Source: Octopus sinensis (lineage: Eukaryota). From it: a DNA stretch of 64,000 nucleotides. The stretch covers positions 103,788,001 through 103,852,000 of the forward strand of contig NC_043003.1 of NCBI RefSeq assembly GCF_006345805.1, given 5' to 3'. Position 1 is the first letter of the stretch. Every line of letters begins with the position of its first letter. Below, in pieces: positions 51,101-57,100 of the stretch. The position numbers were made by a program.

Positions 51101-54100
51101 TTTGTGTAAAAAAAATTATTTTGTGTTTTATTTACTTTGCTAGGTAGTCGTTGTAGGATCGACTAGTCACGACTAGCTTGCGCGACTACGCGTGTGCGCG
51201 CACCGGGACCACTGTTCGCCTGTAGTACCCAATAAAGTAAAGTACCAGTCGAGTAAGGGAGTCGATATAATCGCCAATACTCCCCCCCCCCCAAATCTCG
51301 TACTTCTTGTTAAAAAACAATATTACATCTAAGGCTATTTCCGGTGCTCTGCTTTATTAGTTCCCTTTAATCGTTGTCGAGTACTTTTGAGTCATCATTA
51401 TCCATAAAATAGTAATATATTACGAAATATGCATATCCTTGTAGGTACTCGATGTAAATATTGGGGGGAAATATCCAGAAGTAGAACAAATCTAATAACT
51501 GACCATGTAAGTTGAATCTTCTTTTCTTTAACTATCAATATTAAACTAGTTATAACTATAATGGTAGTTTCTAATTACTTTAAAATAGCTTAGTGCCCGT
51601 AATATGCTTAACTAGAGTAAGTTATTGATCCACGAAGCGCTGGGATTTGCACTTACATAGCATGACTACTGAGCACGGTTTATGAAAATGTGACCATCAT
51701 GCATACATAAAATAAAAAGTTAAAATATCTTCTTGGTATATAATAGTGGCAATATCATCTGAAAAGTCATTAGTTGAGCAATTAGTCCTCTTGCATTCTG
51801 TGGGGTATCGGAGCGTTTGAGCGACATTAGACCCTAATAAACGCAACAAATTAAATGCATCTATCTGGGCTACAATCGTGACCCATCGATCTGTGCCTGG
51901 CGGCCACGATCGTGGCCCGTCGCGCTTTATATGTTAACTGGTTTACAAATTACAAAATAATATTAGCTACTGACAGATATTTTTTATCTTCTTCGCTGCA
52001 TCATTATTTTGACGAAGGTAAAGAATACGCACCCTAGGCGTTTAAGGGTTAGGGTTACGCCGAAAAAAAGGGTGGTGTGCGTATTCTTTATCTCAGCCAT
52101 TATTTTCCCTTTAATACTTAAATAGCTCAGTGGTACACAATGGATATATACACCTAATAGGCATTTTGTGACGTTCGTTCGTTATACGGCGCACAGTTGT
52201 GAAAAATTCCTTCAAATGGGACGGAAACTACTGATTTCAGAAAAGCGAATATTTTTTTAATGAAATTTTCTACAAATACCTTTCACATAGTATAGATTCC
52301 TGCACAATCTGAAAAATATTTGTGTTAAATTTCACTAATAAAATATCAAGGGGGTGTCATTCTATATTTATGTGCATGTATGTATATTATGCATACGCAC
52401 ATAAACACACACATACACAAAAATACATAACCAAGCGATTCAGCTGAAAATATTACGGTAATTGCCGAACAAATAATTTCACTTTTAATAAACTTTCTGC
52501 GGCCAAAAATAGCATAACTATACAAATAACTACTTCTCAAAAATTTTTACCCCATGCCACACTTTAATTTTACAAAAAAACAAAGTGCACCTACCATGAA
52601 CCAAGTATATATCATCATCTTTTATTTTTATTTCTGCTGAAGCTAAAAGCAAGTTTCTCTAAAATTATATTTCTGTATCATTCACTGCATTCACCTCTAT
52701 CCATCTCCTTTTGCACATTTGCAAACTTACCTACCCACTTATCCTGTCCAATCTCTTGTACTACATTTCTTTTAGTCACCCTCCTAAGACTAGGGAGTAC
52801 ACCCTGATACCTCTTCAACACCTTCTTTTATTTCAATCTTGAGTACCTATGTATCTCCTCTACAGCAAAACACCTATTCCTTGCCCTCTATCATACTTTA
52901 ACCTCTCATTATCTTGCATAAAGCTGCCTCCTTCAATGCTATATCACACTCAGTTGATGAGTCTTGTATGTTACTAGATGACTTCATTAGTGCCAGTATC
53001 TTGTAAAAAGCACCCTGTACCCTCTGTAAAGTGGTTAGTATTAGGAAGGGCATCAAGCCATAGAAACCATGCCAGACAGTGGTACTTACTATAGTCCTCT
53101 GTATTGCCAGCTGCTGTTGAACTATCCAACCTATGCCAGCATGGAAAACATGTTAAATGGTGATGATGATGATAATGATCTTTTAACATCCTTTATCTAT
53201 TCTGGCATGCATTGGATGTTTTGACAGTGGATTGAAGGACTGGACAGCCTTTCTAATGCCAACCATTTTACAACATACTGGGTACTTTTATTATGGTACC
53301 GTCACTAGTGCAGCTATCATGTAGCTTGCAAGACTAAGCTCCCCTTTGTCTGGGTAGGGCTACAGTTGAGAGGGATGTGGCCTTATCCATGAGAGCTTAA
53401 AATATGAAGAGAAAAAATCAAAACAAAACAGGATTCTTTCTTTTGAAGAAGTACATGGCTACTTGCATAGAAAAGTGAACAGGAAGTTTTAATCAAAAGT
53501 TTATTGTAAGATTTATTAATTTTTACTTGGACCCCATTCTGAAGTCCCACATTCCACCAAAATATTGCCATGCTCCACCTTGAGGAACAGGTCTTAAAAC
53601 AAATTTAAATACTTTCTCACTAGTCACCCACAGTCTACCTCTTCTGTTTGTTGTAAAACTTCAAAGCTTAGTTTGTAGAATCTTCTTGTAGTAAGGATTC
53701 TCTGGTGTTCCATAGTGAAATCATGTCAAGTGGGAGAAGGGAGTAAGGCTTTGTTAAATAGATTTAATTTTTGTAAGAATGGAGTTTCTAATTTTGTTGT
53801 ACTCCCAATTTCTGACTATTATTTGTGCTTGTTTATTTCCACTTCAGAGTAATTGGTGTATATCTCCTTTGAACTAGCCAAGCAGTTGCTGTGATCATTT
53901 GAAAACCATACCATTTTGGACCGTCTTGAGGAAGTAGTCCTAATTGTTTTGACTTTAAGTTTGGGAGATTTTCAGTTTCTCCCTTCATCATAAAATCTCT
54001 TGACCAGATAATCAGCAATGTGGTTTGTTTCTTTCTTAATTTTCCACTTCTTATTGCAACAGGGTGTATGCATCAACCCATTGTGTTATATAATAGACTG

Positions 54101-57100
54101 CTGTGACCAGGACATTATTTTGGATTCACAACAGTTAAGAGACGATCTGAAAAGTATGCTTCATGGTCAACATTTAGCATGGGGGACAATTGCTAATCAT
54201 ATAATTTCCCACTTTTCACAGCAGACACCCAGGAAAGCTTTAGTACTGTCATTTCATGGAGAGACTGGGACAGGTAAAAATTATGCAAGTGAAATCATAA
54301 TTAAAAATGTGTTCCGTTATGGAATAAAAAGTGATTTTGTGCATGTTTATCATGCTGCAGTTCATTTCCCACATGAGTCCATGTCTCACATTTACATTGA
54401 AAAGTTAAAGCATGAAATTAAAAATGCTGTTTATCTCTGTCCAAGGGCTGTTTTTATTTTTGATGAGTTTCATTTAATGCCACCAAAGGTTATTGACATT
54501 CTCCAAGTCTACTTAGATTTCCATGCTGAAGTGGATGGCATCGACTTCCGTAAAGCTGTATTTATATTTATATCTAACCTTGCTTCAGAGAACATAAGAA
54601 ACTTCACTATAAGCCAATATAAGAAAGGTATTGATCGACATGATATCAAATTGCGAGACTTAGAATTCAGTATTGCACATGCTTCACTCACTCAAAAGGG
54701 TGGTTTTTATGGTAGTGATCTAATTAAAAGTCATCTTGTGACTGCCTATATTCCATTTCTACCCTTACAGCGCACACATGTAAAACAATGCATCAATGAT
54801 GAAATGAAACGACGTAATCCTCACAAGATCTACAATGAAGAATTTATCAACAAAGTATTAATCGAATTACATTTTGTAAACAGTTTTTCAGAGACTGGCT
54901 GTAAACGTGTTTTTGAAAAAGTGGCTTTTGCTCTCATTAATGACGATCTCTGACCTTGATGGCTATTGCTCTAGTCTCTATTTTTACCACTGAAGACATA
55001 GAAGATTATTTTACTGTTATCCTCGGCTTGTGTTCCAAAGTAAGCATCTCTCAACTGAATTCACTTCATTGGAAAATCGATTTCACCTTTGTTATTTGTA
55101 TTAAAGTACTTTTTTTTAAAAGGTGTTGTGTTTTGCATCTTCTTTGACTTTTGTTCACCTGTATATACACAAGGTTTAGTCAAAAAGTATCTGACCTTTG
55201 GTGAAAAAACAAGTAATATTAAAAGAACTCACCATTTTGATTTAGTTTCCTTCGAAGTATTTGCCTTGGGAGTCTACACACTTCTGCTAGCATTCCTGCC
55301 ACTGCTGGAAACATTTCTGGAAATTACTTTTTGGGATGCTGTAGAGCTGTGCCATCAAATTTTGCGTAATGTTCTCTGTTGACTCAAATCTTCTTTCTCT
55401 GAGAGATTTTTTGAGTTTTGGGATTAACCAAAAGTCACATGGAGTAGGAGGCCCGACGAACAAGTGGTGTGTTTTGCTTGAGGAGGAACACTTAGATGAT
55501 GTGGGCAGAATGAGTGGGTGTGTTGTCATGGTGAAGTTGCCAGTTCTTTGCTGCCCACAGGTCAGCTTGTTTTCATAGATGGTCTTCATAGACTATTCCT
55601 TGAACCTTTGCAATCATTTCATCGTTTCAGCTAGTTGATGGTCTGCCACAACGTGGCTCACTGTCCACTGAGGTTTAGCCGTCTTTGAACCAGTTGCACC
55701 ACTCCTTTATTTGTGTTTTTCCCATAGCATCATCTCCAAAGACCTTCTGAATCTTCTCGATAGTCTGGGCTTGCATTTTTGGCAAAATTTGATACCCAAT
55801 GTGCTCGGTCATCTTGACTTAAAAAGAAAAGTCACACAGCACACGCTTCACGTCTGTACTCAATGTGTCACTGTGGGCAAATGTCATAACCTACAGACAC
55901 AAACATTTTTGCATATGCTCTGGTAGGACGTGGCCATCTAATACCCATGCAGATTTTGCCCGCACATTATTATTTTGTGCAAAAAAAATCAAGGTCGGAT
56001 ACTTTTTGACTACACCTCGTGTGTGTGTATGTATATATATAATTATTTTTTAAGGATACATTTATCTTCTGCAAGAATGTTTAAACAATTTCCAATCTTT
56101 TCTAAAGGCATAAGACCTGAAATTATGGTGGAGGATATTAGTCGATCATATCGACCCCAGTATTTTACTGGTTCTTAGTTTATCAACCTCGAAAGGATAA
56201 AAGGCAAAGTTGACCTTGGCGGAATTTAAATTCAGAACGTAAAGACGAACAAAATGTCACTAAGCATTTTGTTTGGCATGCTAACGATTCTGCCCTAATA
56301 ATAATAATAATTGTAATCCTTTTTCCTATAGGTGCAAGGCCTAAAATTTTGGTGGAGGGATTAAGTCAATTACATCAGCCTCAGTCTATAAATGGTACTT
56401 AATTCATTGACCCCAAAAGAATGAAAGGCGAAGTCAACCTCAGCAAAATTTGAACTCAGGACGTAAGGACAGAGGAAATGCTGCTAAGCATTTTACCCAG
56501 CGTGCTATCAATTCTGCCAGCTTGCCGCCCTAATAATATAAATAATAATAATAATAGTAAATTACAGCTGAGTGTGTTTGATCACACCAAGGGCAACATG
56601 ACTATACCTAGCAATGTTTTATGTCATTGTGGACTAACACGCTTGTGACTAATCCTGTTTGGTGTATTGATTAGGTTATAAGTTAACTTGTGATTCATAA
56701 CTTGATTATACATTTTATGAGGGAGATTTCTGTTGATATTGTCTCAAACTGCACAGCACACATAATTGTGAATCTTGGGCTTCTGATTTAGATAACCACA
56801 TCATTATCATCTTTCTAGCTACTCCTACCACCCTTATATATTGTGAGATAGCTATATATCTTCTCTATAGCAAGACCTCTATCACACTTTAGTGTCTCAA
56901 TTTCTAGTGGTAATCTACCTCCTCTCTACTGGACCCCTACTTTGTTGAGGGGTCTTCTTTGTCTTGTGAGTTACTTAGTGGCATCACTACTGCCAGTGTC
57001 ATATGAAAAGGATTGGTTTTTAAGCAAAGTTATCCAGCCATAGAGACCCTGCTAAAGCAGACATTGGAACTCTGCACAGTCCCCTGGTTTGTTGGTTCCT

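What the first reader, a model, noticed from the sequence alone, without database searches (positions are those of the whole stretch)
53829..55105. Intronless torsin apparently nested in LIN7 intron 1 on the same strand, possibly sharing its first exon
Seen: single-exon CDS, strong acceptor at 53847, ATG-free 170-nt leader, and no LIN7 exon 2 found before it. Splicing LIN7 exon 1 to 53848 gives G|AG TAA, a 13-aa uORF followed by the torsin ATG. Established: vertebrate TOR1A/B CDSs are multi-exon. Inference: a retrocopy that either uses the LIN7 promoter as an alternative terminal exon (LIN7 versus torsin output by splice choice) or has its own nested promoter.
Basis: partly seen in the sequence, partly recalled or inferred. 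Interest (0 to 1): 0.7.

Follow-up and report, generated by a model that had tools for sequence, protein, structure and literature searches.

The report
Single-exon octopus torsin gene
This is an intact, evolutionarily constrained torsin gene with an uninterrupted coding sequence in an octopus genome; it is ordinary as a gene, and neither its placement inside a LIN7 intron nor any sharing of LIN7's first exon could be shown.

Summary
Window 54018..54953 (+) is a 311-codon open frame encoding a complete torsin (Pfam Torsin 5.9e-41; human Torsin-1A structures 7.7e-62 in one aligned piece).

- The "LIN7 exon 1" is 12 codons plus a donor, and no tool could test its identity.
- No L27/PDZ-like exon lies anywhere in the window.
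- There is no poly(A) remnant or target-site duplication.
- The gene is not a young retrocopy. Octopus bimaculoides has an orthologue (91%) and a paralogue (84%). These form a long-stemmed clade, and their differences avoid conserved columns.
- No conventional Octopus torsin appeared in three searches, so this lineage is probably the octopus's working torsin.

An own promoter is the most economical reading. Exon sharing with LIN7 stays speculative and needs transcript data. Interest is low.

The parts
54018..54953 (+). Complete torsin coding sequence, 311 codons plus stop, with no intron
   Evidence: ORF list; Pfam Torsin PF06309 at 140 bits against a cutoff of 27; Torsin-1A 6oif 7.7e-62, query 35-304 in one stretch; the only torsin locus in the window by tblastn
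54018..54071 (+). Hydrophobic N-terminus (MWFVSFLIFHFLLQQGVC), a probable signal sequence
   Evidence: Read from the translation; the first 46 residues are 42/46 identical in O. bimaculoides P0002 (my count from the alignment); no signal-peptide predictor was available
54258..54281 (+). Walker A motif GETGTGKN (residues 81-88), the torsin-type GXXXXGKN
   Evidence: Position; G81 and T83-N88 invariant; motif definition from PMC7175109 passages
54453..54470 (+). Walker B motif FIFDEF (residues 146-151)
   Evidence: Position; D149 and E150 invariant
54897..54905 (+). Gly-Cys-Lys sensor II (residues 294-296); its partner Cys258 is at 54789-54791
   Evidence: Invariant columns C258, G294, C295, K296; positions; definition from PMC4999309 passages
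53848..54017 (+). ATG-free leader, the presumed 5' UTR
   Evidence: 0 ATG in 170 nt, found in 4.4% of windows; TAA at 54009 is in frame
53782..53847 (+). Acceptor-like site (branch-point-like CTGAC, pyrimidine tract, CAG|A at 53847); also ATG-free
   Evidence: Sequence; rank 38 of 3761 AG sites by a crude score; nearest upstream ATG at 53779
55100..55105 (+). ATTAAA, the likely polyadenylation signal 147 nt after the stop
   Evidence: Pattern scan; no A-run follows it (a T8 run lies at 55110)
38956..38992 (+).
   Evidence: Sequence; lies in unique DNA between simple repeats; no PDB, Pfam or Atlas support; the resemblance to LIN7 N-termini is recalled only

Best explanation
The feature is a working, single-coding-exon gene for a torsin, the AAA+ ATPase of the endoplasmic reticulum and nuclear envelope lumen. 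The window comes from an octopod.

The gene is the orthologue of O. bimaculoides 'Torsin' and belongs to a small octopus family with at least two members. That family is a fast-evolved branch of a torsin clade lying outside the other mollusc torsins sampled. No conventional Octopus torsin was recovered, so this lineage is most probably the octopus's principal torsin and not a spare copy.

The protein keeps the torsin-type Walker A, Walker B, sensor I Asn, the Cys plus Gly-Cys-Lys sensor II, and both domains. By inference it binds ATP in the ER lumen and is switched on by a LAP1/LULL1-type partner that supplies the missing arginine finger.

Inferred expression: it is transcribed as its own unit and ends at the ATTAAA at 55100. 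The start is either in the unique, ATG-free 240 nt upstream of the ATG, or in a short non-coding exon of its own spliced to 53848.

It lies 15 kb downstream, on the same strand, of a 12-codon frame that may be LIN7 exon 1. If that call is right, the gene sits in LIN7 intron 1 as an ordinary nested gene.
For: Shown:
- Intact 311-codon frame.
- Pfam Torsin 5.9e-41; Torsin-1A structures 7.7e-62 over chain residues 6-278 of 282.
- Motifs present and invariant across 8 aligned sequences.
- Window against O. bimaculoides: P0002 91%, P0003 84%. The only gap is a 36-aa block in P0002 that matches a GT..AG-bounded 108 nt in the window, so it is a modelled intron and not a deletion.
- Differences among the three octopus sequences are depleted at columns fixed in the five sister proteins: 5/119 against 19/149 (p=0.017), 8/108 against 29/125 (p=0.0011), 4/95 against 26/102 (p=2e-5).
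- Tree of 60 rows: octopus clade 100/100 on a stem of 1.21, sister to five unnamed proteins (98/95), outside a 30-row mollusc clade (99/96).
- Octopus-named hits: 2 of 120 listed, 1 of 120, 0 of 120, all of this lineage. One search does list vertebrate, crustacean and cnidarian torsins at 42-48% identity.
- The locus lies in a 2909-nt stretch (53185-56093) with no self-match elsewhere in the window at E<=1e-10.
- The ATG-free tract is 239 nt long.

Inferred: ER location, cofactor dependence, own promoter.
Against: - No transcript data, so neither the start site nor use of the 53847 acceptor is known.
- That acceptor-like site is well formed (top 1% by my score). If it is used, there is an upstream exon, and an own promoter next to the gene would not be the whole story.
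- The database's own model of this protein (P0001) starts at Met47 and lacks the hydrophobic N-terminus.
- Absence of a conventional Octopus torsin rests on top-120 lists from a search that first filters on shared words. It is not a search of the genome.
- TOR1A_C scores 24 bits, below its cutoff of 27.
- The tandem Glu pair of human TorsinA helix alpha7 aligns to Ile-Glu here (read from the alignment), so cofactor binding may differ.
Confidence: 0.6

Rival explanations
1. One reading: the torsin exon is an alternative terminal exon of LIN7. Transcripts start at the LIN7 promoter, exon 1 splices to 53848, the LIN7 ATG opens a 13-codon upstream frame, and ribosomes re-initiate at the torsin ATG. 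Splice choice then sets LIN7 against torsin output.
For: Same strand, 15 kb apart. The donor at 38992/38993 and the acceptor-like site at 53847 are both plausible. The carried G plus AG TAA closes the frame 165 nt before the torsin ATG (read). The leader is ATG-free. No LIN7-like exon competes in between.
Against: - There is no transcript evidence of any kind.
- The LIN7 identity of the 12 codons is unverified.
- 7 AG sites including 53847 itself score at least as well between the two points, and a false positive inside the ORF scores higher.
- The ATG-free tract continues 69 nt upstream of the acceptor, as expected for an unspliced leader.
- A conserved, probably essential ER ATPase that depends on re-initiation after another gene's start codon is an uneconomical design.
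Confidence: 0.07
2. Origin claim, compatible with the best explanation: the lineage began as a retrocopy of a multi-exon torsin in an octopod or cephalopod ancestor. It landed here, acquired a promoter, duplicated, and outlived or replaced its parent.
For: - The CDS is uninterrupted over 311 codons, whereas human TOR1A has 5 exons (PMC10448058, abstract).
- Several mollusc torsins are listed as 'isoform X1/X2', which hints at spliced genes.
- The paralogue P0003 has 235 contiguous codons on a 712-nt contig.
- The long stem of 1.21 fits acceleration after relocation.
- No conventional Octopus torsin was seen.
Against: - No poly(A) remnant and no target-site duplication, although an old event would have lost both.
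- The exon structure of the sister proteins and of other mollusc torsins could not be examined, so stepwise intron loss or an intron-poor ancestor is not excluded.
- No parent was identified.
Confidence: 0.35
3. The LIN7 call is wrong. The 12-codon frame at 38956 is a chance ORF plus GT, and the torsin is a free-standing gene in intergenic DNA.
For: 68 ATG-frames on the + strand have at least 10 codons before an AG|GTR. PDB, Pfam and Atlas give nothing. No L27/PDZ-like exon occurs anywhere in the 64 kb. Local G+C is 0.32, with no island-like rise.
Against: From memory only: LIN7 proteins begin with a short stretch of the form E-P-x-x-L-E-R/K-D just before the L27 domain, and the phase-1 'G' left at 38992 would start an Asp codon. 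A 7-residue match plus start plus donor is unlikely by chance. The frame lies in unique DNA. The null results are uninformative, because even a perfect 12-mer gives E=3.2e3 at the large database's size.
Confidence: 0.3
4. The ORF is a decaying or non-functional copy that happens to be still open.
For: Fast evolution: stem of 1.21, and 31 of 132 columns fixed in the sister group are changed in the window protein. The tail lacks the H/R-x-E-L of its relatives.
Against: All catalytic motifs are intact. No frame-breaking change separates three sequences from two species. Substitutions avoid conserved columns.
Confidence: 0.02

Closest known systems
Human Torsin-1A (TOR1A; PDB 5J1S, 6OIF)
   Same: Homologous over both the large and the small domain (7.7e-62). 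[quoted passage not shown]
   Different: The CDS is in one exon against 5 exons. There is no second hydrophobic region after the signal sequence (read). The Glu302/303 pair aligns to Ile-Glu, and a 4-residue loop is absent (alignment). It is 311 aa long, with 132-143 bits against other mollusc torsins' higher mutual scores.
Octopus bimaculoides 'Torsin' A0A0L8FMT4 (P0002) and 'torsin-1A, partial' (P0003)
   Same: Orthologue (91%) and paralogue (84%), with the same N-terminus, motifs and N-E/D-D-L tail. They form a 100/100 clade with the window protein.
   Different: P0002 lacks 36 aa, including sensor I. In the window's DNA that block is bounded by GT..AG and is 108 nt long, so it is probably a modelled intron. 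P0003 is a fragment on a 712-nt contig.
   Same: Reciprocal nearest relatives at 44-51% identity; sister clade at 98/95.
   Different: They have 20-35 extra N-terminal residues and end in H/R-x-E-L, which looks like an ER-retrieval signal (motif meaning recalled). The octopus proteins end in N-D/E-D-L. Their stem is much shorter (0.35 against 1.21).
Intronless genes nested in a host gene's intron; retrogenes that replace their parent
   Same: Uninterrupted CDS, same-strand position downstream of a possible host first exon, with transposable elements around it.
   Different: The host is unverified, there are no retroposition scars, and no parent is known.

Membership tests
Torsin (AAA+ ATPase, Pfam PF06309) | Match to the Torsin profile above its curated cutoff | tested here: met
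   140 bits against a cutoff of 27, residues 23-148, profile positions 1-127 of 127
Torsin (AAA+ ATPase, Pfam PF06309) | Non-canonical Walker A GXXXXGKN (PMC7175109 passages) | tested here: met
   GETGTGKN at residues 81-88; G81 and T83-N88 invariant
Torsin (AAA+ ATPase, Pfam PF06309) | Walker B with Asp-Glu | tested here: met
   FIFDEF at 146-151; D149 and E150 invariant
Torsin (AAA+ ATPase, Pfam PF06309) | Conserved Cys (human 280) plus Gly-Cys-Lys sensor II (PMC4999309 passages) | tested here: met
   C258, G294, C295 and K296 invariant and aligned to the human residues
Torsin (AAA+ ATPase, Pfam PF06309) | Large nucleotide-binding domain plus small C-terminal helical domain | tested here: met
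   Aligned to chain residues 6-278 of 282 of 6oif. Pfam TOR1A_C reaches only 24 bits against a cutoff of 27.
Torsin (AAA+ ATPase, Pfam PF06309) | No arginine finger of its own; activated by LAP1/LULL1 | not testable with these tools
   Needs a structure-based alignment and the octopus cofactor. No LAP1-like sequence was available.
Torsin (AAA+ ATPase, Pfam PF06309) | N-terminal signal sequence, hence luminal location | tested here: inconclusive
   An 18-residue hydrophobic N-terminus was read directly and is conserved in P0002. There was no predictor, and the database model P0001 starts at Met47.
Processed retrocopy / retrogene | Coding sequence uninterrupted | tested here: met
   One ORF, one aligned stretch
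Processed retrocopy / retrogene | Relatives or the parent carry introns at those positions | not testable with these tools
   No eukaryotic genome collection was available. The only evidence is that human TOR1A has 5 exons (abstract) and that 'isoform' names occur for mollusc torsins.
Processed retrocopy / retrogene | Poly(A) remnant at the 3' end | tested here: not met
   No A-run of 6 or more between the stop and 55204; a T8 run follows the ATTAAA
Processed retrocopy / retrogene | Flanking target-site duplication | tested here: not met
   Of 6 direct-repeat families in 53000-56200, none brackets the gene. The two candidates have their 3' copy inside the element at 55167-56022.
Processed retrocopy / retrogene | An intron-bearing parent gene in the same genome | not testable with these tools
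   Only the window was available. No conventional Octopus-named torsin appeared in the three top-120 lists.
Gene nested in LIN7 intron 1 | The upstream exon is LIN7 exon 1 | tested here: inconclusive
   PDB (E<=10), Pfam (E<=10) and Atlas gave nothing. A perfect 12-mer cannot pass the large search (E=3.2e3). The resemblance is recalled only.
Gene nested in LIN7 intron 1 | No host exon between exon 1 and the torsin | tested here: met
   Scan with 11 recalled L27/PDZ motifs over all frames, plus reading of the 86 + strand open segments of 40 aa or more that lie before the torsin. Profile scanning of the frames was not possible.
Gene nested in LIN7 intron 1 | The next host exon lies downstream of the torsin | tested here: inconclusive
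   None in 54954-64000; the window ends there
Shared first exon / alternative terminal exon | Transcripts joining 38992 to 53848 | not testable with these tools
   No transcript collection was available. Only splice-site plausibility could be scored.

The most novel reading that the evidence does not exclude
Octopods discarded the ancestral multi-exon torsin and run their nuclear-envelope/ER torsin function from a small family of retrogenes. The copy in this window is lodged in LIN7 intron 1 and is expressed from the LIN7 promoter by splicing exon 1 to 53848. A polarity/synapse scaffold gene and the torsin would then be coupled through splice choice and a 13-codon upstream frame.
Probability: 0.05. 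Interest if true: 0.55.

Novelty: new member of a known kind. Interest (0 to 1): 0.22.

Why it matters
As it stands, this is a correct gene call with an over-extended story. Torsins are well known, an orthologue is already annotated in O. bimaculoides, and intronless genes lying in or near other genes' introns are common.

Two points have modest value.
- The only torsins recovered for Octopus are this divergent, single-exon lineage. If that holds genome-wide, it is a clean case of a retrogene, or an intron-less derivative, taking over an essential luminal ATPase role. The changed cofactor-binding helix and C-terminal tail would then be worth testing.
- The locus is a concrete place to test host-gene/nested-gene coupling with ordinary RNA-seq.

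Neither point is surprising to a specialist without transcript evidence.

Tried and rejected
A local calibration showed that a perfect 12-residue match gives E=3.2e3 at that database size, so the search was not sent.
- PDB, Pfam and Atlas on the same unaltered 36-aa frame gave no hits. This is uninformative for so short a match.
I did not re-send it in another form. Instead I listed the 144 open segments of 40 aa or more and read them, on top of the motif scan.
- Literature: 'torsin'+'intronless' (2 papers, listing only, irrelevant); 'torsin'+'cephalopod' (3 papers, listing only, irrelevant); 'torsin'+'gene family'+'exon'+'invertebrate' (4 papers, listing only, irrelevant). These three searches found nothing in print on cephalopod torsins or intronless torsins.
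- Mariner-type reading of the ORF at 55287-55592 (-): not supported by Pfam or PDB.
Supplements were closed and not consulted.
- The spliced model (exon 1 joined to 53848) was neither built, translated nor searched. The exons were examined separately.
- Structure prediction and complex prediction were not run. The sequence match to solved Torsin-1A is already decisive for the fold, and no octopus cofactor was available.

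
Full report
WHAT IS THERE. Window 54018..54953 (+) is one open frame of 311 codons.
- It matches Pfam Torsin over the whole 127-position profile (5.9e-41, 140 bits against a cutoff of 27). It matches TOR1A_C weakly (24 bits, below the cutoff of 27).
- It aligns to solved human Torsin-1A chains at 7.7e-62, query 35-304 against chain 6-278 of 282, in a single stretch. The coding sequence is therefore complete and uninterrupted.
- An in-frame TAA at 54009 excludes a longer N-terminus.
- tblastn of the window protein and five relatives finds no second torsin locus in the 64 kb; the next best match has E=0.032.
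- There is no N in the window.

- The leader 53848-54017 has no ATG. Only 4.4% of 170-nt windows on this strand share that property.
- The ATG-free tract goes on to 53782, 239 nt in all (1.6% of windows). It does not end at the proposed acceptor, so it fits an unspliced leader as well.
- The AG at 53847 has a CTGAC about 30 nt upstream, a pyrimidine tract and CAG|A. By a crude score of my own it ranks 38 of 3761 AG sites. It is the only site that good in the last 1 kb before the ATG.
- However, 7 sites including itself reach that score between 38993 and 54017. An AG inside the signal-peptide codons (54062) ranks 17. T-rich codons for hydrophobic residues imitate acceptors, so the score is not proof.
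- I did not build, translate or search that joined model. The two exons were examined separately.

THE LIN7 CALL. This is the weak point.
- A six-frame scan with 11 L27/PDZ motifs that I recalled found no plausible exon anywhere. Seven segments hit one motif each, none hit two, and only one of them is on the + strand after 38992.
- I read all 144 + strand open segments of 40 aa or more from 38993 to 64000, 86 of them before the torsin, and saw nothing LIN7-like.
- The 12 codons themselves cannot be scored. PDB at E<=10, Pfam at E<=10 and the Atlas all return nothing.
- Structurally the mini-exon is not special: 68 ATG-frames on the + strand run at least 10 codons into an AG|GTR. It does lie in unique DNA between simple repeats.
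- From memory only, LIN7 proteins start with a short E-P-x-x-L-E-R/K-D stretch. I therefore think the call is more likely right than wrong (about 0.7), but this is recall and not a test.
- If the call is right, the torsin is necessarily inside intron 1, because no further LIN7-like exon precedes it.

RELATIVES.
- The best named hits are O. bimaculoides 'Torsin' (P0002) and 'torsin-1A, partial' (P0003), so the window is from an octopod (721 hits among 1111 candidates, 120 listed).
- In alignment the window protein is 91% identical to P0002 and 84% to P0003. P0002 and P0003 differ from each other, so O. bimaculoides has at least two copies.
- In the tree, P0003 branches before the window/P0002 pair (99/83). 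The duplication therefore predates the split of the two species.
- P0003 is 235 contiguous codons on a 712-nt contig, so that copy also looks uninterrupted over that span.
- P0002 lacks 36 aa. In the window's DNA exactly that block (54550-54657) starts with GT, ends with AG, is 108 nt long, and leaves C+AC = His, the residue P0002 has at the junction. The gap is therefore a modelled intron and not a deletion. Since 191 in-frame GT..AG pairs of 60-300 nt exist in the ORF, a gene predictor can easily find one.
- The next relatives are five proteins without names (P0006-P0009, P0011) at 44-51% identity. They are reciprocal best hits.
- For the tree I used 60 rows: the window protein, 2 Octopus, those 5 unnamed proteins, 30 other molluscs and 22 other animals. 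They were picked from the 187 proteins held at that point (120 plus 67 new ones). I left out fused or long models such as P0004, P0005, P0010, P0012 and P0071, and nearly all other unnamed rows.
- Tree result: the octopus trio is a 100/100 clade on a stem of 1.21 changes per column. It is sister (98/95) to the five unnamed proteins, whose stem is 0.35. The eight lie outside the 99/96 clade of the other 30 mollusc torsins; a long-branched Schistosoma row attaches next to them.
- With a chiton torsin as query (781 hits among 3631 candidates, 120 listed), 0 of 120 are cephalopod-named and none of the eight appears. Vertebrate, crustacean and cnidarian torsins at 42-48% identity do appear.
It did not, so this divergent lineage is probably the octopus's own torsin.
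- The caveat is that these are top-120 lists from a word-prefiltered search, not a genome search.

IS IT FUNCTIONAL?
- The torsin-type Walker A GXXXXGKN (definition: PMC7175109 passages) is GETGTGKN at 81-88. Walker B is FIFDEF at 146-151. The sensor I region is FIFISN at 182-187.
[quoted passage not shown] All of these are invariant in the alignment, except where P0002 has its gap.
- Differences among the three octopus sequences avoid columns that the five sister proteins keep fixed: 5/119 against 19/149 (p=0.017), 8/108 against 29/125 (p=0.0011), 4/95 against 26/102 (p=2e-5).
- There is no indel apart from the modelled intron. That is purifying selection on the same sites, so this is not a decaying copy.
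- The lineage has nevertheless changed 31 of 132 sister-fixed columns.
- The Glu pair of human helix alpha7, which contacts LULL1, aligns to Ile-Glu.
- The relatives' H/R-x-E-L tails are replaced by N-D/E-D-L. That H/R-x-E-L resembles an ER-retrieval signal is my recollection.

RETROCOPY?
- After the ATTAAA at 55100 there is no A-run; a T8 run lies at 55110.
- None of 6 direct-repeat families in 53000-56200 brackets the gene.
- The locus lies in a 2909-nt stretch (53185-56093) with no self-match elsewhere in the window at E<=1e-10. A dispersed repeat lies at 52990-53184 and another at 56094-56500. An 856-nt element with 32-nt inverted ends lies at 55167-56022.
- An old retroposition would have lost its scars, so this does not exclude a retrogene origin.
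- Human TOR1A has 5 exons (PMC10448058, abstract), and several mollusc torsins carry 'isoform' names.
- The exon structure of mollusc and cephalopod torsins could not be examined. I rate an ancient retrogene origin at about 0.35.

HOW IT MOST LIKELY WORKS.
- Shown: an intact, constrained torsin CDS in one exon.
- Inferred from the family: an ER/nuclear-envelope luminal ATPase with weak intrinsic activity, switched on by a LAP1/LULL1-type partner that supplies the arginine finger.
- Inferred for expression: its own transcription unit that ends near 55120. The start is either in the ATG-free 240 nt upstream or in a short non-coding exon of its own.
- Exon sharing with LIN7 is possible but has no positive evidence beyond splice-site plausibility (about 0.07).

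VERDICT. The family call is right. 'Intronless' is right for the CDS. 'Nested in LIN7' is unverified. 'Retrocopy' and 'shared first exon' are not supported by anything testable here. Orthologues are already annotated in O. bimaculoides. This is a new member of a known kind, and interest is low (0.22).

Noticed in passing
window 54550-54657 (+), inside the torsin ORF: A 108-nt in-frame stretch bounded by GT..AG equals the 36 aa (including sensor I) missing from the O. bimaculoides model P0002, and the junction codon C+AC = His is exactly as in that model. It is either an annotation artefact or an in-frame intron within the exon that can be spliced out. The acceptor side is purine-rich and looks weak.
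   Followed up: partly
window 54040-54062 (+): The signal-peptide codons form a pyrimidine tract plus CAG|G that out-scores the proposed 53847 acceptor (rank 17 against 38 of 3761 AG sites). The database's own model of this protein (P0001) starts at Met47, downstream of it.
   Followed up: partly
window 55167-56022: An 856-nt element with 32-nt inverted ends (91% complementary) begins 62 nt after the ATTAAA at 55100-55105. It carries a 101-aa open frame on the minus strand (55287-55592) that looked to me like the C-terminus of a mariner-type transposase, but neither Pfam nor the PDB supports that.
   Followed up: partly
C-termini of P0006, P0007, P0008, P0009 and P0011 against window 54939-54950: All five nearest non-octopus torsins end in H/R-x-E-L, which looks like an ER-retrieval signal (meaning recalled). 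The octopus proteins end in N-D-D-L or N-E-D-L and also lack the relatives' 20-35 extra N-terminal residues.
   Followed up: no
window 1203-1637 (+) and 3025-3975 (+): Two related open frames of a mobile-element type. The first matches the GIY-YIG nuclease domain (1.9e-06, 28.5 bits against a cutoff of 22.6). The second, 316 aa, shares a long similar stretch with it but has no Pfam hit.
   Followed up: partly
window 52990-53184 and 56094-56500, with copies throughout: Two dispersed repeat families of roughly 170-350 nt at 67-84% identity, each with a dozen or more copies in the window, bracket the torsin locus at a distance. 28% of the window matches another part of itself.
   Followed up: partly
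window 34515-34823 (-): A 102-aa open frame with a DUF4817 helix-turn-helix match (2.3e-05, 24.4 bits against a cutoff of 22.6), a domain I recall as accompanying transposases.
   Followed up: no
window 19014-19556 (-) and 5680-5955 (-): Two open frames that could be exons of unidentified minus-strand genes. The first is a 180-aa acidic, Ser/Asn-rich frame with no Pfam hit. The second is a 91-aa coiled-coil-like frame with only sub-threshold DUF4200 similarity (20.8 bits against a cutoff of 29.7).
   Followed up: no
window 38809-38847, 38918-38929 and 39293-39434: The proposed LIN7 exon is flanked by a (TG)n run and an A12 run just upstream, and by a TA/CA-rich simple repeat about 300 nt into the intron. 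Local G+C is only 0.32.
   Followed up: no
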